DNA of 64,000 nt, from the NCBI RefSeq assembly GCF_006345805.1, contig NC_043004.1:80538001-80602000 (forward strand). Reading direction: 5' to 3'. The stretch comes from Octopus sinensis (Eukaryota). Both the position numbers and the translations under genes were made by a program. The notes beneath the pieces were generated by a model. The model was not told the origin of the DNA. It saw only the letters and a list, made by a program, of their open reading frames with translations, and did not search any database. Below, piece by piece: positions 40,101-62,394 of this stretch (the first letter of the stretch is position 1; each line of letters begins with the position of its first letter).

Positions 40101-41753
40101 GTTTCTCCTCACCCTCTCAGAGATAGATTGTGTATACATGGATATACATACCTCTGTGTGTGTGTGTGTATAAAGAGAGAGAAAGATGCACACACATATA
40201 TATGTATGTGTGTGTATGTGTGAATAAAAAGATAGATATACATAGATATTGATGTATGTATACAGATATATTTGTATGTATGGGTCTGTGTGCATATATA
40301 TGCATGTGTGTATATATATGTAAAGAGTGAGAAACATGCATATACACCTATATATACATACATACATACATATGTGTGTGTGTGTATATTCATATATATA
40401 TATGTGTGTGTGTGTGTATTCATATATATATATATATATGTATATTTATATATACATACATACACACACACATGCAGACACACACACACACACACACACA
40501 CACAGATATTTCATATTTCCAAAAGTCTTTTGCACCATTATTGAAAAGTCTGCAGGGTGTTAGTATTGATATAAGGACTGGAAAATGCTGTTGTACATTG
40601 ATTTTCGTTTCGGTCTTTACAGCATTACGCTGAATGCATTACTACAAAGAGGGTAGATATGATACAACATTGACATTAAATATTTTACACTAGTTAGTTG
40701 CCAACCTCTGCATGCCAAGTTCAAATCTTGCTGGAAGACCTGAAGACCTTTTTTTTTTTTTTATTTTGTGATTATACCAGGAAGTGCATTCAAGGGTTGT
40801 ACAACCTCAGTACTTTGTTACTTATTTGGGCCATTATGATGAAAGTTGAAGTAAAACCATTTTTTAAAGATTTTGTTTGTTTTTTTTAGAATATCGATTG
40901 GCATTAGGAAGGGCATCCTGTCATAGAAACCATGCCAAACCAGACTGGAACTTGGTGAAGCTCTCTGGCTTACCAGTTTCAGTCGACCTGTCCAACCCAT
41001 ACCAGCATGGGAAGCAGGTGCTAAAGAGTCGTAGTGGTGGTGGTGGTGGTGATGATGATGATCAGGGTAATGGTGATGGATGATGCTGTGCTGATGATGA
41101 TGATCAGGGTGATCTATAACATTCACCATATACCAATATGTAAAATATACTGTCGTTGTTGTCATCAGCATCATCATCATCATCATCAGTTAACATCTGT
41201 TTTCCATGCTGGCATGGGTTGGACGGTTTCACTGGTACTGGCAAGTCTGAAGACTCTGCTGCCTGCCTTGGCTTGGTTTTTACCGCTTGGTGCCCTTCCT
41301 AATGCCAACCACTTTACAGGGTGTACAAAAGGGGCCTTTTACATAGCATTGGCTTGTTAGTGAGGTCGCTAACAAGCAACTCACAGAACAAGACCCCTTA
41401 ACTGGAGTAGGGGTGGGGGATTAAAGAAATGAGGGAACAAAAAATGTGTCTTACATCACACCAGGTTAAGGGGACAATTGTGACCACTGACCATTGTTGT
41501 CCAGCATTCTTTGAAATTTCAAGGTCAATCTAAATAAACACCACAAGGTCTTTTAGGCTGCTCTGGAGAAATCCAGAGAAATCAGTAGTTGATATTCTCA
41601 GGTGAAATTAAGGCGATGAGCTAGAAGATTCTTAATGTGAATTTGTGTGTTGAAACAAATTTTGTTTATACCAGTGCATGTGTTAATTATATTGGGATAA
41701 TGACACAACAAAATTTTTATTATTCTAATTATTTTTTTTCTTTTCTTCAACAG

Positions 41754-42457
41754 ATGATGTTTTGGCCCTGATTAAAAATTCAGAAAAAAATACTATGGGT
41801 CACTTGAGCGAGATTTACCGAATCCCTTGGAGTGAGCACCACAAACCAGTGAACAAGCTTTTTGCAAGTTTGTTTGATTACGTGAAGCAGGGACAAGTTG
41901 AAATTCCCATCATTGTAAACGAATTCTTCGACCAGCTCTTGCCTCTTGTTTTCCGATATGCTGTCAATGATCCAACGGTGACCAACTACAAAGAATCACT
42001 CAACGATTGCCTCATCAAGTTGCGTCGTCATTTGCACCCACAACCGTTTGGTACCTTCTCTCGTAAAATGGCTCACGAGCTCTCCACAGTCCTCTGGGCT
42101 GCCAGATCCTACCTTCACGCTCTCTCTGTAGTTTCTGACACCATAAACGCAACAAACCACCTGGATACAGAAGAAACCTGCAAGAAAGGAATTACCCAGA
42201 TGTTGTTCTGTTCTCAATGCAAGGGCCATGTCGGTGTGAAACCTTGCAAGGATTTCTGCCAGGATGTCATGCACAGTTGCTTCAGCAAACAAATGGAAGT
42301 CAGCTATGAGTGGGATGAAATTGTTCGGTTGTTGCGCCAACTTACTCGCTACATGGTTGGACCAAGTGGTTTGGAATCTGTACTCAAAAATATCGACAGG
42401 GTTATTTCCGATGGCATTATGAATGCAATGGACAAAGCGCCGGAATTCACCCCAACG
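41754..42457 (+). CDS. GPC5: Internal coding exon (equivalent to vertebrate exon 3) of a glypican, GPC3/GPC5/Dally subfamily
   Basis: Polypyrimidine tract + CAG acceptor ending 41753 (phase 1) and GTAAGT donor at 42458 (phase 0). The translation has the glypican Cys signature CKKGITQMLFCSQCKGHVGVKPCKDFCQDVMHSC. FFDQLLPLVF and ISDGIMNAM resemble GPC5/Dally more than GPC4/6, and a single ~700-bp exon matches GPC3/5 structure. The symbol denotes the subfamily only. Confidence 0.93.
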
Positions 42458-42504
42458 GTAAGTTTCATAATGTTCCTATTTTTCCCATTCCATTCCTACT
42501 TCTT

Positions 42505-42900
42505 TGGGTCTCTGGTCCTCCCTGTCCTGATCTATAATTATGAGATTTGGACACTGTCCAGGGCCCTTAGGAGCCCCTTGTACTCCTTTGGTACAAGGAA
42601 GCTGTGCAGGATTATCATTTACCATTTACGCAGAAACTGGGAAGCATCCTATTACTTAGGTGATTCAGGAATGCCTGCTCAGAGTTCTTGGCCATGTTGC
42701 TCAGTTTTCCAAGTTAGAATCTGATTACCATTTTCTCTTCACTGAATATCTGGATGGGTTGATGGCTTGTTTTAGTCAACAATGTGCCACCTGTTCATGA
42801 CAGATGAAGGATAATCTCCATGAAGATGGAGACTGACTGGGACTCTGCTGGACAGGCCAACTGGGAGGTGTCGGGACATGCTTCATTGCATGTGTCATGC
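42505..42900 (+). mobile_element. Decayed RTE ORF2 fragment just downstream of the glypican donor
   Basis: SLVLPVLIYNYEIWTL...SFGTRKLCRII resembles the RTE motif V.PVLLYG.ETWTL...F....LRRI. The right boundary is uncertain. Confidence 0.6.
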
Positions 42901-54700: not shown

Positions 54701-56473
54701 GATTTCATTGGGGTTAACTTTGCCTCTCATCTTTTTAAGGTCAATAAAATAGGTACCAGTTGAGTACTGGGGTCAACGTAAACAATTTTCACCATCCTCG
54801 AAATTGCTGGCCTTGTGACAAAAATTTGAAATCAATATTCCCTATGGTTGGACATTTTTATTGCAATGCAGGAAACAAACAACCTCGCTTGTATCACAAT
54901 GATGCTCATTTACAACCATTATGTTGACGCCTAGATAAGGATACACTCTAACACACACATGCACACACACCGATATATAGTTATAAAATGAGCTTCTTTC
55001 AGTTTCCTTCTACAAACTCCACTTACAAGGCTTTGATTGGCCCAAGGCTATAGTAGAAAATACTTGTCCAAGGTGTTGCACTGTGGGACTGAACCCAGGA
55101 CCACATGTTTGCGAAACATGCTTTTTAACCACACAGTCACATCTGCTCTTATTGCTAAGCTACACGATAAAAACATAAACAAAAATCTAGGCTGCGGTTC
55201 CTTCCTTGGTTTGGGTTTAATGTCATTGGTCGGAACTGGAAGTGTTGGAACTGTATGAGTCACCAGCTGCAGAAAACGATACAAGAATGGCATCGGAAAA
55301 GAAGAGGGTAGAATCTAAATAAAGAAATTTAATAGCAGAATCCTTGAAATCAGTCTCTTAGTTCTTTCTCCAGTTTTACATTATAGAAACGAAAGTATCC
55401 ACCGATGTCTCTATGCCATTTACTGTCCCCAAACCAAAAACAAAAAGAAATGGAGAAGAAAGGAGAATGAAGAGACATCTTTTGCTGATAATGCGAGATT
55501 CTTTAGTTTGGTTTGAGGTTTAGGAATAAGTGACGGACTTTGTTAATGCATCATTCCTAAATTATATTAACAGCTTGTCACTCGTGTGTCATACATTATC
55601 ACACTGAACCAACAACGCTCCTTCTTTCTTCTTCTTCTTCTTCTTTTTCTTCTTCTCATTCTTCTTCTCATTCTTCTTCTTCTGCTGCTGCTGCATTTCT
55701 TTTTCTTCCTTTTTCCTCCTCTTGCTTCTCTTCCCCCTGCTTCTCCTCCATCTGCTTCTTCTTTTCTTCCTTCAACTCCTCCTCCCGCTTCTCCTTTCCC
55801 TCCTTCTCCTACTCTTACTACTCCTGCTTTTCCTCCTTTTCTGCCTTCTCCACCTCCTACTCCTGCTTCTCCTTTTCTTCATTCTCCTCCTCCTACTACT
55901 CTTACTACTCCTGCTTCTCTTCCACCTCCTCCTCCTCCTCCTCCTCTCATTGTCTTGATTCTTCATTATCTTCCTGGCCCATTTAGTCTTCTTGCTTCTT
56001 CTCTCCTTCACCCTTTCCTTCTTTTCCTTCGCCTTCTTCCTCTCTTTCTCATTTACTTTTTCTTCATCTTCTTGTTCTTCATCTTTTTTAATCACCTTCG
56101 CTTCCTCCTCTTCCTTTTCCTTGTAAATTGCATGCTAGAAGGACACATCCATGTAGCACCCTTGGCTTGATCCCCAATCATTAGGGTTCCTTGGTTGCCC
56201 CTAGCTAATACTCTCGTCCTAACAAGACAGTTTTGTTGTTATTTTTTTTCTCATTGATCATATTTGTTTTTCTTTTAATTGTTTATATATGGTTATATAA
56301 TAAATCCCTACAGCCCTTTGTCTTTGTAATGTCTTAAATATGTTTTTGGCCCTTGTGGCCAATAAAGTATTAATAATTTTGGAACTGGCTCTTGAAAGAG
56401 ATAAAGCTATAAATGATAACATGTAAATACTGCAGAGAAAATGTCAGTCTTATGATGTGAACAACATTATTAT

Positions 56474-56860
56474 AAGGCGGCAAGCTGGCAGAAACGTTAA
56501 GCACGCCGGGCAAAATGCTTAGAGGTATTTCATCTGTCTTTACGTTCTGAGTTCAAATTCTGCCAAGGTTGACTTTGCCTTTCATCCTTTCGGGGCTGAT
56601 AAATTGAGTACCAGCTGCGTACTGGGTTGATCTAATTGACTGGCCCCCACCACTAAAAATTTCGGGCTTTGTGCCCACAGTAAAGAATATTTTCTAGAAC
56701 TAAGGCAGTGAGCTGGCAGAAACGTTAGCACACCAGACAAAAGGCTTAGTGGTATTTCGTCTGTCTTTACATTCTGAGTTCAAATTCTGCTGAGGTCGGC
56801 TTTGCCTTTCATCCTTTCGGGGTTGATGAATTAAGTACCAGTTGCGTACTGGGGTCAATC
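56474..56860 (+). mobile_element. Two SINE family B copies followed by a ~220-bp (TTA)n
   Basis: aaggcggcaagctggcagaaacgtt... at 56474 and aaggcagtgagctggcagaaacg... at 56702. Confidence 0.82.
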
Positions 56861-56968
56861 TAATTATTATTATTATTGTCATTATTATTATTATTATTAT
56901 TGTTGTTGTTATTATTATTATTATTATTATTGTCATTATTATTATTGTTATTATTATTATTATTATTG

Positions 56969-57009
<41 letters not shown>

Positions 57010-57370
57010 GTCATTATTATTATTATTATTATTGTTATTATATTATTATTATTATTATTATTATTATTGTTATCATTATTATCTCTAAGTAACAATCAGT
57101 GGTGTTGGCTTTATAGAAAACAATAGTTTTTGTGTTGGATCACTTAACGTTCACAGCAGTAGAACATCAAAATTTTCCAAAACACACGCTGACATACACA
57201 CACACACACACAAACACATACACACACATGCACATACCAGGATTCTGCAAAGGTTTTTACTATTGTATTGCATTCAAAGCAAAAGATATAGATCAACGAG
57301 GTGTTTCTGTCTGTTTGTCCAGGTGTCTACCTCATTAGATGTGTGTGCACATGTGTGTGTGTGTGTGTGT

Positions 57371-57406
<36 letters not shown>

Positions 57407-58610
57407 TTGGAGAAAGACTGTAATATTTTCCATGAATAAAATAAAATGGTTTTCGTTTATCCTAAAAAAAAAACAAAATCGATAAAAAAAACATACATGG
57501 CCACAAGGAACTATCATCTTTCAAAAAATGTCACCAGCTGAGCAAAAGACATTGTTTGACAAGAGTCTGGCTCTTCGTAGACTTCCTGCAAGTTCCATCA
57601 GCTTCGACTTACCCGACCCTTCCCCGCCACTCTTATTTTGCTGCCAGTTACTGTCCATGCATATTTATCGTCTGACTAAACAGTTGATGAACGGGTTAGA
57701 GAATTGGTCAGACACCAATCATGAAATTTCATAATATATATCTAAACATATTGATTAGTTATAGGATTCGTTAGAATCCAGGCACGTCAGCATGTAGGAT
57801 GCCAGAAGTGGCTAGGTGCAATAACATAGGGTTTGTAGTGAAGATGTTATGTGTTGATAGGATATTCTAGATATGTAGATGTGTGTCAGTTCCAATTTAA
57901 ATGGAAGATCTGACACAAGGCTGGTTCTAGGTGCGACATAGGTACAAAATAGGAAATAAATGTGGTATAAAATAGAATGTAAATAAGGTTTTAAATTTAC
58001 AACAGCTGTTTCGGTAGAATTTTATTGGTATATTTCATAGATTACACCATGGCATATAATTCACTGTATGGTGGATTATCTGCTATGACGTAATCTGTGA
58101 ATACATCAATAACATTCTACCAAGACATCTGTCATAAAATATATCCAACCACACATACACATACACACACACACATATAATCATGTAACATCTGTCTTCC
58201 ATGCTGGCATGGGTTGGATGGCTTGACAGACTTCAATAAACCAGTGGATGGTGTTGAGGTCCGGTGCCACCTTTAGAAAGGTTTTTGTTGTTGGATGCCC
58301 ATCTAATGCCAACCATTTCACAGACAGTACTCTGCCTCCTTTTTCATGACACCTGCACTTGTGCAAAACAATGAGGCTCCCTCAACTGAGTGAGGTTGAA
58401 GTAGAGGGAAAAGTGACTTTACACTGGTTGTTGAGAGGTTAAAATATATGAGAGAGACTGGCACAGGTGTGTATCAGCGTGTGTGTGAAAATTCTCATAT
58501 CACAATAAATTGTTTTGTAACCTAAAAACATCTAAATATAATATAAATTGTTCACATGATTTTAAGTTACAAAACAATTTGTCGTATTATATATATATAT
58601 ATATATATAT

Positions 58611-58913
58611 ATTTTCATTTAGAGATAGTAGGCCCCTTCATCTCGCCATATAAAAAAGAATTTTTATTTTAAATACCTACTACTTTATAACTTGGCTACA
58701 CGTGTTTCATGAGGTACATTTCCTAGTTCCTAAACCACTCCGTGTTTTGCTGGAACCATTCTTAAAATATAACCGAACCATCAGGCCCCTATATCACTTT
58801 CTCATAGTTCAATACTATAAACTATATTTTAATTTTTTTAAACCCATAAGTATGTGTAAAATAGGTTCGCCGGACCCTACAGTACAAACCATAATTTAAT
58901 TCAAATGAATTTA

Positions 58914-58945
<32 letters not shown>

Positions 58946-59260
58946 TTCATTTAGAGATAGTAGGCCCCTTCATCTCGCCATATAAAAAGAATTTTTATTT
59001 TAAATACCTACTACTTTATAACTTGGCTACACGTGTTTCATGAGGTACATTTCCTAGTTCCTAAACCACTCCGTGTTTTGCTGGAACCATTCTTAAAATA
59101 TAACCGAACCATCAGGCCCCTATATCACTTTCTCATAGTTCAATACTATAAACTATATTTTAATTTTTTTAAACCCATAAGTATGTGTAAAATAGGTTCG
59201 CCGGACCCTACAGTACAAACCATAATTTAATTCAAATGAATTTATATTTATATATATATA
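58611..59260. repeat. Tandem dimer of a ~331-bp unit separated and flanked by (TA)n
   Basis: Units 58611-58942 and 58943-~59260 appear identical apart from one A indel. Confidence 0.93.
58694..58787 (-). ncRNA. Hammerhead-like motif with extended stem II (second copy 59025-59118)
   Basis: Minus strand GGC-CTGATGG-[~69-nt imperfect hairpin]-GAAAC(acgt)GTA-GCC. Stem III is palindromic; core A9 is G. Confidence 0.45.
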
Positions 59261-60527
59261 TTCTGTCAGTTTGCCATCTGCTGGAACTGAAGCTTCTTAA
59301 CCACACCGGTTTCATATATTCTAGCTCCTCATTTTCATCCAGTCTCTTAACTCCCTATTTTTTTGTTTATATATACACTCACTATTCTCACTCATCCTCT
59401 ACCTTTATTTTAGTTTTGACTTTTTGTTCTGATGAAGGACTAATGACCAAAACATTAAGACACCATCTTTTCCCATCTAAAGCATCTAGCTAACACCATA
59501 TTTGTCAACTTTGTTCTTACTGGGCTATTCTTTCTGATGTTTATTGCATTTACTACACACACACACACATGTACATAAACACACATTTGTATATCTAATT
59601 TTGTGTATATTTGTTAACTCTAGCTTGTTGTATATTCGTTAGTGTACTTTTACCGTGGCAATGTAGGGTTTTCTCTTTAACATTAATAAATATAATTAAT
59701 ATAATTATTCCTCTCATCTCCAATATAGCGCCAACTACTTTCAAAGCATTCCACTGTGATTTCGTTTAATCCATACCAATTATCTGACTTTTAGGGCAAA
59801 CCTACACACACACACACACAGGCATTGCAGATTCTGTAATTTCTACTGTAATTAACAATAGTTGCTGATCCTTTGAACAAGCAATCCATATCTCATTATT
59901 TCCACCAATCCAGTCATACCATCCACCTCTCACCAGCATTCCTTCTGTATCTCATCGCTAAGTTCCATTATCAAAGAATTTCTCAAACTCTTTATTCTAG
60001 AACTGTTTCTTTGTAAAAACTCTTCCATGACAATATTTTCCTTCAAGATTTGATTAGCATTCTCAACAGCTAGTTCAGTAAATAAATTAATGATGAGCTA
60101 ATTGTTTTTTTTAAGCAGCAAAATGAAGTATAAAATAAATCTATAGATTTCAGCCAACATTCTGTAAATTAAACTGAAATAAATGGACCAGGCTGGTTTC
60201 ACTCCTATTCAGTGATCTCATCAGCAACAGAGTATCCATCCATTACTATCCCCAAGAATACTTACACAAAAACGTGCATGTGTGTATGTGTGTATATATA
60301 TATATATATATATTCACACACACACACATGGTCAGTCGCCATGATAGATCATTAGCCACTACACACATTTTTCTCTCCTTGCTTTTTCTGTGTCTCTTTC
60401 TGTAGAAGAGCGTAGGCTCGAAATGTAAAAGACTTTTTCTCTTCCTGAGCATTATACTAATACATCTGTTTGTTTTGTACACCAACTGTCTTTGTCTTTT
60501 GTTTTTTTCGTAAACTCTCCCTATACA

Positions 60528-60563
<36 letters not shown>

Positions 60564-62394
60564 CACATATAGTCCATGATCAAGGGCTATAAATAGGCCA
60601 AACTGATTTGCATAAGTCATGCATTTTTGCAACTTGTTTGATTTATTATTTAAGCTTGCTTTTATAAATTAAACTGAATAAATACACACGCAGGACAGTT
60701 GTAAAATGAAGTTTTTCTGAGGGAGAGAGAGTGGACAGTGGTGAGGGTGAATCTCAGATGTAGCAGAATGCTTATCAGGAACTTTACTTTACTCTTGACC
60801 CTGCTTTTTATTTCTCTTTGTCTCATGTGTGCATGTCTGCTTCTGTGTGTGTCTCAGTTGATGTAACCTTTTTGCGATTGTTAAATCTTCAAATACACCC
60901 AATCTCTATGTCCCTCTCACACATACCCATTCCCTCTCCTTATCTCTCTCTCTCTCTCTCTCTCTCTTTCACATACTGTTTTCCTCTCTCTCTCTTTCTC
61001 ATCCTTTCACATAGTTTGTCATTCACTCTCACTCACATGCACACACACACACACACAGAGCTTCTCACACTCTCCTCTCTTTCTCTCACACATACAACCA
61101 CTTTCTTTCACACTGTCTCTCCCTCTCCTTCCCCCCTACACACATTTACCTACATTCCCTCTTCCTCTCACCACTACTCATGTCTCTATGCCCCACCCCA
61201 CCCTCTCCTACCACCTTTGACATTTCTCAATAAACCTAAGTTCCTACTTATTTATAGTTACCCCCCCTTTTTTTTTGGTGTTTTTTTCTTTCTTTACTTT
61301 TTACCTTACAGACTTTTTTTATTCTCTAAATTTTTTTTCTTGTTGTTGATCTGACAAACACTAGAATTAATTAAAACAAACTAACGACTTAAAAAGGACT
61401 GCAATAATAATAATAATTATTATTATTATCATTGTAATCAACGATGAATAAAAGTAATTTGAAGATGGCAGAGATATATTTCACTTTATTTGTTTTTATT
61501 TATTTCTGAATATTTTCTTTTTTTCCTTTTTGACAATATCTTGGCATTTCCAGTTTCAATTATCCAACTTAACAACAACAACAGCAACAATAATGATAAT
61601 GTTTTGGTAAATCTGAGAGTTTCTAGAGAAAATACTCTTGTCATCATTGACACAGCCTTTAACCTCTTACTACTATTATAACTGCTACTGCTGCTGCTAC
61701 TACTACTACTATTACTATTAATACTACTGCTGTTTATACTATTGCTACTACTACCACTACTATTGCTGGTACTACTAGTACTACTACAACTACTACTATT
61801 ATTGCTGGTACTACTACCACTAATACTACTACTACTACTACTACTGTTGCTACTGTTATTGTGACTACTACTACAAGCATCACCACTGGTGTTGGTAGTG
61901 TTGGCAGTGGTGATGATGATGATCATTGTGGTGGTGGTGGTGGTGGTGGCTTTTTGAGTTTTTTTTAATTTTTTTATTTTGTTCTTATATGTTATTAAAA
62001 CAATGGACTGGATGAAATAGACTCCCCAGTACACAACTGGTACCCTTTTAAGCCTCGCCAGAAAAGTATTGAAGTTAAAAATCTCCCTTCTCCAATAAAT
62101 ATTGACCATTACGGTTCGTGGTCTTAATCACAACTGACCAAAGCCTGACAGTGGTGGTGGTGGTGGTGGTGGTGGTGAAGACTGTTTTGGAAGCTCGTTT
62201 CCCATCCACATGGTTCTGAGTTCCAGTCCAACCCTGGCCTTGTGGGTGGATTTGATAGATGGAGACTGGAAGAAGCCCATCATCTGTTTGTGTGTTTGCA
62301 TTTACACCCCTGTAACTTAGTGGTTCAGCAAGAGAGACCAAGAGAATAAGTTGTAAACTTTAAAAAAATATATATCAATATATATATATGGTGA

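What the first reader, a model, noticed from the sequence alone, without database searches (positions are those of the whole stretch)
58611..59260. 331-bp tandem dimer with a hammerhead-like motif in each unit: candidate retrozyme / Penelope-type repeat
Seen: two almost identical units. On the minus strand each reads GGC-CTGATGG...CAT-GAAAC-ACGT-GTA-GCC (58694-58787, 59025-59118), with stem I GGC/GCC and a palindromic stem III ACACGTGT. Stem II is unusually long (ggt/acc, atatttt/ggaaatgt, ggttcc/ggaact, aaacac/gtggttt). Known: metazoan non-LTR retrozymes and Penelope-like terminal repeats are few-hundred-bp tandem units with minimal type-I hammerheads, and palindromic stem III supports dimeric cleavage and monomer/circRNA release. 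Inference: an octopus member with an atypical long stem II. Caveats: core position 9 is G rather than A, stem I is only 3 bp, and the dimer could be an assembly artefact.
Basis: partly seen in the sequence, partly recalled or inferred. Interest (0 to 1): 0.75.

Follow-up and report, generated by a model that had tools for sequence, protein, structure and literature searches.

The report
Long-armed hammerhead on Penelope retrotransposon end
The two 331-base copies are the clipped, mutated tail of a known kind of jumping gene (Hydra-clade Penelope-like element), likely doubled in place rather than spread as a retrozyme; intact relatives carry a predicted self-cutting RNA whose second arm is about three times longer than in published members of this clade.

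Summary
The dimer (58588-59261, period 331, one indel) and the hammerhead-like motif are real. Each unit is the last 299 bp of a dispersed retrotransposon. Longer copies extend at least 2.7 kb upstream into an RT + GIY-YIG ORF with Hydra-clade motifs, are 5'-truncated, often carry an inverted 5' copy, and end in (TA)n.

The family restores CUGAUGA (A9 in 49 of 53 copies). Its helix II insert is 69-70 nt, versus 12-26 nt in the published Hydra table. The same three-helix design, with compensatory changes, occurs in a sister family, and sister families also change the helix III palindrome coordinately.

The window copy is damaged: A9G plus a broken base of helix II. Both units share all 10 differences from the family majority and the same truncation point, so the doubling came after insertion (or is an assembly error; reads could not decide). 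Of 71 loci, 63 are single, 6 inverted pairs and 2 direct pairs, so this is not a retrozyme family. Cleavage is untested.

This scan noted long-stem-II Hydra hammerheads before on other genomes (unchecked AI notes). Verdict: new variant of a known kind; modest interest.

The parts
58588..58612 (.). (TA)n tract at the element's 3' end; insertion target
   Evidence: 62 of 64 family 3' ends examined run into TA-type sequence at one of two end points
58613..58911 (-). Unit 1: 5'-truncated 3' end (pLTR) of a Hydra-clade Penelope-like element, 299 bp
   Evidence: 706 first-look candidates in the genome, best other copy 97%; aligns at 83% to the 3' end of a 3-kb coding copy, L063
58694..58787 (-). Type I hammerhead, copy 1: helix I GGC/GCC (58787-85/58696-94), core CUGAUGG 58784-78 (A9G at 58778), GAAAC 58708-04, palindrome ACACGUGU, predicted cleavage between 58697 and 58696
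58709..58777 (-). Extended helix II insert (69 nt here, 70 in family): 13-bp basal helix, purine-rich internal loop, 6-bp middle helix, short apical helix. Base damaged here by a G deletion and G>C at 58776-58775
58912..58944 (.). Central (TA)n tract with the locus-specific 5' junction; duplication boundary
58945..59242 (-). Unit 2: identical copy apart from one base in an A run; same truncation point and same private changes
59025..59118 (-). Type I hammerhead, copy 2, same A9G (59109) and helix II damage; predicted cleavage between 59028 and 59027
59243..59261 (.). Short TA tract at the element's truncated 5' end, joining the right flank
   Evidence: one contig each in runs X1 and X3 runs from 59189 through this junction to 59583-59584

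Best explanation
Each unit is the 3'-terminal 299 bp of a Hydra-clade Penelope-like retrotransposon sitting in a (TA)n tract, with a hammerhead motif that is likely inactivated here and was likely doubled in place after insertion. Inferred history: the element's GIY-YIG endonuclease nicked (TA)n, and its RT primed on an AT-rich stretch at the RNA 3' end and stopped after about 300 nt. The copy then gathered point changes, and recombination or slippage between the two flanking TA tracts (or a mis-assembly) repeated it. In the intact parent, the hammerhead is predicted to cut after GUA, most likely as a dimer through the palindromic helix III of two head-to-tail pLTRs. That would release the element RNA from a read-through transcript roughly 210 nt ahead of the ORF (distance pieced together from separate copies). 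Its 70-nt helix II is a conserved structure whose role is not shown; most likely it is a tolerated, structure-selected extension that stabilises the core.
For: Shown: family copies extend upstream with falling coverage, at least 2.7 kb, into frames with RT motifs (DIDNYYAS, GAPxSA, YRDDL), CNCx5C and a YIG endonuclease. Sister-family ORFs of 748-859 aa carry RIKWK, DKT, CTCx5C, CxxC..E..N..CxH, the Hydra diagnostics listed in PMC8557442 section 11. The U-[stem]-U frame around helix II is seen in 14 of 26 Hydra rows of its File S2 and is UU in 40 of 52 family A and 19 of 21 family B copies. The 79 exact 20-mer hits fall in 71 loci: 63 single, 6 inverted pairs, 2 direct pairs. The 80-nt tail behind 31 of 64 3' ends is the sequence ahead of the ORF in L083 and L086, and in sister copies L088 and L090 the hammerhead sits directly upstream of the ORF. 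Helix II cells paired: 648/675, 285/306, 283/312 in family A; 246/263, 102/110, 105/110 in family B. On the joint alignment 94.8% of cells pair versus 35-44% for slid controls, with double-sided changes in helix I (GC/AU, 14 copies) and the middle helix (CG/UA, 6 copies); a further UA/CG change in 5 family A copies. The helix III palindrome reads ACGU, AAUU, GAUC or AGCU in related families. Window copy: pairing probability of the first 5 helix II pairs is 0-0.02 versus 0.81-1.0 in intact copies. Both units share all 10 differences from the family majority. Other near-identical direct repeats of such insertions have unrelated periods (507, 1069, 1318, 2153).
Against: No cleavage, RNA end or long read was seen. 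Pfam names no RT or GIY-YIG above cut-off (best GIY-YIG E 0.008), and the PDB sequence search found nothing. Clade assignment rests on motifs compared by eye with the paper, not on a tree with named Hydra proteins. No family A copy with hammerhead, tail and ORF in one piece was among the loci fetched. The double-sided changes are few events (2 of 18 pairs, not above the shuffle for that measure, 438/500), and registers differ by one base between families A and B in two helices. Default alifold recovered only part of the family A structure. Only 31 of 53 A copies and 12 of 22 B copies keep all 14 core bases.
Confidence: 0.85

Rival explanations
1. The doubling is an assembly artefact: the genome holds one truncated copy between TA tracts.
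For: The only difference between the units is a homopolymer indel, and all boundaries are TA tracts. In runs X1 and X3 a contig runs unbroken from the element into the right flank where a dimer would add a branch; this is weak, because contig building removes branches.
Against: Similar direct repeats elsewhere include one at 97.6% identity (L122), and partial tandems are a known PLE feature (PMC8557442 passage). A recent real duplication would look the same.
Confidence: 0.35
2. It is an active or nascent non-LTR retrozyme: the dimer is transcribed, self-cleaves through the palindrome, and releases a 331-nt circle copied by the PLE enzyme.
For: Size (331 bp), low GC and tandem form match animal retrozymes (about 300-bp monomers, dimers to multimers; PMC7229834 passages). 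Retrozymes are proposed to derive from PLE pLTRs (bioRxiv 10.64898/2026.07.22.740005). The palindrome self-pairs at -10.3 kcal/mol.
Against: A9G and loss of the basal helix II pairs in both units. None of the 28 other loci fetched with the unit has its junction or all its private changes. Only 2 of 71 loci are direct pairs, with different periods.
Confidence: 0.05
3. Both units were laid down in one insertion by reverse transcription round a circular or re-read template (PLE partial tandem).
For: PLEs form partial tandems, and a circular template was proposed for them (PMC4209133 discussion).
Against: The repeated unit includes the locus's own truncation junction and TA tract and all private changes. 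A partial tandem would normally join through the element's tail or 5' UTR and have different 5' ends.
Confidence: 0.1

Closest known systems
Hydra clade of C-terminal EN+ Penelope-like elements and their hammerheads (Craig et al. 2021, PMC8557442; includes Hydra-1_Obim)
   Same: RxxWK, DKT, CxCX5C, CxxC/CxH motifs, C-terminal GIY-YIG, (TA)n target, 5' truncation with inverted 5' copies, a hammerhead about 90-170 nt from the 3' end, and the frequent U..U frame at the base of helix II.
   Different: Spacer between CUGANGA and GAAA is 69-70 nt (44-100 nt in L093, L095, L098, L099) versus 12-26 nt in all 26 Hydra rows of File S2. The ORF has a long Asn-rich insert. The listed Hydra-1_Obim hammerhead has a different sequence. 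Two non-Hydra entries in the same table (PLE-X1 of Selaginella, marked deviating) have spacers near 50 nt, so long arms have some precedent.
Minimal PLE hammerheads (Cervera & de la Pena 2014, PMC4209133)
   Same: Type I, short helix I, palindromic helix III, mostly dispersed single motifs from truncated PLEs, opposite-strand pairs 100-700 bp apart, predicted dimeric and weak cleavage.
   Different: They have a 6-8 bp helix II and a conserved G10.1-C11.1 pair; here the base is U.U or U-A followed by U-A, and helix II has about 25 bp in three segments.
Animal non-LTR retrozymes (PMC7229834; bioRxiv 10.64898/2026.07.22.740005)
   Same: About 330-bp low-GC tandem unit with a type I hammerhead in each copy; axolotl HHR_Amex2 also has a U.U at the base of helix II.
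   Different: Not a self-standing non-coding family: the unit is the end of a coding element, the tandem is unique to this locus, the core is mutated, and no circular RNA is shown.

Membership tests
Hydra-clade PLE | Single ORF with RT and C-terminal GIY-YIG endonuclease upstream of the pLTR | tested here: met
   Broken frames in family A copies L061-L066; open 748-859 aa frames in sister copies; A-clade rows 56-69% identical to L088 over the projected columns. Pfam GIY-YIG only E 0.008.
Hydra-clade PLE | RWK and DKT motifs in the RT N-terminus | tested here: met
   RIKWK and DKT in L088-L090; the matching RxKWK codons are visible upstream in L083, L086, L087; criteria.
Hydra-clade PLE | CxCX5C linker; CxxC and CxH around the conserved E and N; no CCHH | tested here: met
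   CNCMDKNHC, CLLC..E..LLN..E..KCKH in L062; CLLC..KCKH in L065 and L061. Absence of CCHH judged by eye.
Hydra-clade PLE | Insertion into (TA)n | tested here: met
   62 of 64 family 3' ends examined; window flanks.
Hydra-clade PLE | 5' truncation, pLTR tail, inverted 5' copies | tested here: met
Hydra-clade PLE | Groups with named Hydra RTs in a phylogeny | not tested
   The tree holds only this genome's copies and six unnamed database proteins; published Hydra sequences were compared by eye only.
Type I hammerhead ribozyme | Core CUGANGA / GAAA / NUH | tested here: met
   Family: A9 in 49 of 53 and 21 of 22 copies; mean core conservation 0.96.
Type I hammerhead ribozyme | Intact core and helix II in the window copies themselves | tested here: not met
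   A9G, G deletion and G>C; basal pairs P<=0.02.
Type I hammerhead ribozyme | Helices I-III supported by compensatory change | tested here: met
   few independent events.
Type I hammerhead ribozyme | Self-cleavage after NUH | not testable with these tools
   Needs in vitro transcription or RNA end mapping.
Non-LTR retrozyme | At least two consecutive units each with a complete hammerhead | tested here: not met
   Two units, but both have G at position 9 and a broken helix II base; definition.
Non-LTR retrozyme | Non-coding unit that propagates as such (family of tandem units of fixed size) | tested here: not met
   63 single, 6 inverted, 2 direct pairs of 71 loci; the unit continues into a coding element.
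Non-LTR retrozyme | Monomeric linear and circular RNA | not testable with these tools
   Only contig-level runs were available.

The most novel reading that the evidence does not exclude
Several Hydra-clade families in this genome carry an active hammerhead whose helix II has grown into a selected 44-100 nt module. It would be left as the 3' hairpin of the upstream cleavage product and would act as a binding handle for the element's RT/EN protein or as a switch on cleavage. Such ribozymes are missed by Rfam, and TA-bounded doubling of these ends, as at this locus, would be the first step by which a retrozyme is born from a Penelope pLTR.
Probability: 0.25. Interest if true: 0.6.

Novelty: new variant of a known kind. 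Interest (0 to 1): 0.33.

Why it matters
The function of hammerheads in endonuclease-bearing PLEs is still unclear (PMC8557442 passage). A set of related families with the same core but helix II inserts from 16 to 100 nt, coordinated palindrome changes, and near-intact ORFs gives natural variants for testing dimeric cleavage and protein dependence. It also shows that hammerhead counts based on Rfam or short-stem descriptors can miss whole families. The window locus itself is a decayed copy and matters little.

Tried and rejected
Rfam at E<=10 over 56000-62000: no hammerhead, only repeat-driven miRNA matches. Pfam on 12 proteins and the PDB sequence search on 1: no RT or endonuclease family above cut-off. 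The homolog search gave 6 unnamed proteins at 33-44% identity with the same motifs, three carrying precomputed PF26215. My first guess of the Neptune clade was dropped after reading the Hydra diagnostics. Sequencing runs: no RNA holder listed. The unit1/unit2 junction could not be tested because the tool skips 58898-58956. X2 and X8 have no cover of most of the right flank, and X8 is only guessed to be RNA and also covers flank, so no expression claim is made. Default alifold on 53 family A rows gave a partial structure; pair counts used a structure I named from single-copy folds, which favours it over slid controls. Rows dropped: before, 3 of 56 family A rows (two duplicate genomic copies and window unit 2), also window unit 1 (52 left); one search used 34 of the 75 rows (20 A including the window, 14 B), picked by hand to span subfamilies. 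A long-insert candidate in L096 did not fold better than shuffles (z -0.35 and -0.02) and is not counted. Literature searches listed no paper describing a 70-nt helix II in octopus or Hydra-clade hammerheads; paywalled papers, Repbase/Dfam and bioRxiv supplements were not visible. Earlier-findings search by sequence: nothing.

Full report
Observation. The tandem is real in the assembly: 58588-59261, period 331, 2.0 copies, differing by one base in an A run. Each unit holds, on the minus strand, GGC-CUGAUGG-[69 nt]-GAAAC-ACGU-GUA-GCC. A hammerhead descriptor finds only these two sites in the window, against 0.017 per shuffle (60 shuffles). Rfam does not see it.

What the unit is. It is not a self-standing repeat. 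The own-genome search gave 706 first-look candidates; 40 were scored, yielding 45 matches, full-length ones at 87-97%. In other loci the homology continues upstream with steadily falling coverage, to at least 2.7 kb (L061/L063). That upstream DNA translates, in broken frames, to a reverse transcriptase and a C-terminal YIG endonuclease with a CNCx5C linker. Searching with the RT piece found related families with open frames up to 859 aa. These carry RIKWK, DKT, CxCX5C and CxxC..CxH, the features given for the Hydra clade of Penelope-like elements (PMC8557442, section 11 read; passages; supplement File S1/S2 and alignment excerpts). Pfam and the PDB sequence search name nothing, so the clade call rests on motifs.

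Insertion anatomy. The anatomy is also PLE-like. An exact 20-mer from the hammerhead has 79 hits at 71 loci: 63 single, 6 inverted pairs, 2 direct pairs (a lower bound on copies). Of 64 family 3' ends examined, 31 stop at an internal ATATAT, 31 run about 80 nt further and then enter TA, and 2 are other. That 80-nt tail is the sequence ahead of the ORF in L083 and L086, so the template RNA is inferred to be head-to-tail, with the hammerhead roughly 210 nt before the likely start codon. Sister copies L088 and L090 show the hammerhead directly before the ORF; L090 and L098 have one on each side.

The ribozyme. The family has A at position 9 in 49 of 53 copies. The 70-nt insert folds as a 13-bp basal helix, a 6-bp middle helix and a short apical helix. 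A sister family B (75% identical over 1.9 kb of coding region; 22 copies) has the same design in a partly different sequence. Paired cells are 91-96% per helix in both families. On a joint alignment of 34 rows, 94.8% of cells pair versus 35-44% for slid controls, with double-sided changes at 2 of 18 pairs; these are few events and not above the shuffle by pair count. Per-copy z of the insert has median -1.9 (A) and -3.2 (B). More distant families have inserts of 16-19 nt (L088-L090) or 44-100 nt (L093, L095, L098, L099; z -2.3 to -5.2), and the palindrome centre switches among ACGU, AAUU, GAUC and AGCU. That coordinated change is the best sign of selection for dimeric pairing. In a midpoint-rooted tree the short-arm group is nested among long-arm ones; this is a hint only. 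Published Hydra hammerheads have 12-26 nt spacers in all 26 rows, 14 of them with the same U..U frame; two non-Hydra PLE-X1 entries reach about 50 nt. Minimal PLE hammerheads were reported to cut weakly and only as dimers (PMC4209133, parts 1-2 of 4 read). 'Long helix II' in viral hammerheads means 6-8 bp (PMC13725137 passages). A recent octopus repeat annotation does not mention ribozymes or Hydra in its main text (PMC13282606 term search).

This locus. The window copy has 10 differences from the family majority, including A9G, a G deletion and G>C at the base of helix II. These drop the pairing probability of the first five pairs to 0.02 or less, versus 0.81-1.0 in intact copies. Both units share all of them and the same truncation junction, so doubling followed insertion and decay. 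Other near-identical direct repeats at such insertions have unrelated periods of 507, 1069, 1318 and 2153 bp, which argues against a fixed monomer. Contigs of runs X1 and X3 bridge the element's 5' end to the right flank (X3 or X1 may be the source sample). The junction between the units could not be tested, so an assembly artefact stays possible (about 0.35).

Comparison. It works like a PLE pLTR hammerhead. By motifs it is a member of the Hydra clade; a tree with named members was not run. It fails the retrozyme tests of complete hammerheads in consecutive units (bioRxiv 10.64898/2026.07.22.740005, part 1 of 5 read) and of propagation as a unit; circular RNA (PMC7229834 passages) was not testable. 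bioRxiv supplements, Repbase/Dfam and paywalled papers were not visible and may already list these families.

Verdict. Observation confirmed, interpretation partly supported. The locus is a decayed, doubled end of a known retrotransposon clade; the conserved 70-nt helix II is a new variant. Four earlier scan notes on other genomes reach a similar reading; they were consulted after my own reading was set and are not counted as evidence. Interest 0.33.

Noticed in passing
window 25088 (-) and 25146 (+): Back-to-back inverted pair of short-arm hammerheads of the L088/L089 type (CCAC-CUGAAGA-UUGUC..GACAU-GAAAC-AUUU-GUA-GUGG), another Hydra-type insertion with a 5' inversion.
   Followed up: partly
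window about 59429-59460 (+) and 60402-60430 (+): Two degenerate short hammerhead-like relics seen by eye (CUGAUGAAGG..CCAAAAC; CUGUAGAAGAGC..GCUCGAAAU); not picked up by the descriptor scan.
   Followed up: no
L083 363-443, L086 1777-1853, L087 about 2033-2080, upstream of the ORF in L088 and L090: A motif CCCTGT..GGA(A)T..ATTCCCT(A/T)A with a small hairpin is kept in the tail/5' UTR across families about 57-69% identical in protein, just before the second 3' end point; a candidate RT recognition signal.
   Followed up: partly
window 58622-58644 (-): Small hairpin GAGAU/AUCUC just before the element's 3' end, seen by eye.
   Followed up: no
L120, L121, L122, L067/L021: Other near-identical direct repeats at PLE insertions, some including inverted junctions (periods 1318, 2153, 1069, 507; 97.6-99.8%).
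   Followed up: partly
L088-L091, L096, L097: A sister Hydra family with open frames of 612-859 aa and a long Asn-rich insert between RT and endonuclease; 6,287 first-look candidates for the RT piece; invisible to Pfam.
   Followed up: partly
L085 (oriented 4649) and flanks of several loci: A different, common short hammerhead (CUGAAGA-AGGCUG..CAGCC-GAAACGU, 21-nt insert) next to another PLE-type coding fragment.
   Followed up: no
L096 (both strands): A GUGAAGA..119 nt..GAAACAGCUGUA motif present twice in inverted orientation; the insert does not fold as one hairpin.
   Followed up: partly
window 41729-42721 (+): A 331-aa open frame with non-repetitive composition, likely an exon of a host gene.
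   Followed up: no
window 4826-4181 and 3515-2976 (-): Two stretches about 1.1 kb apart translate to near-identical repetitive peptides, suggesting another local duplication.
   Followed up: no
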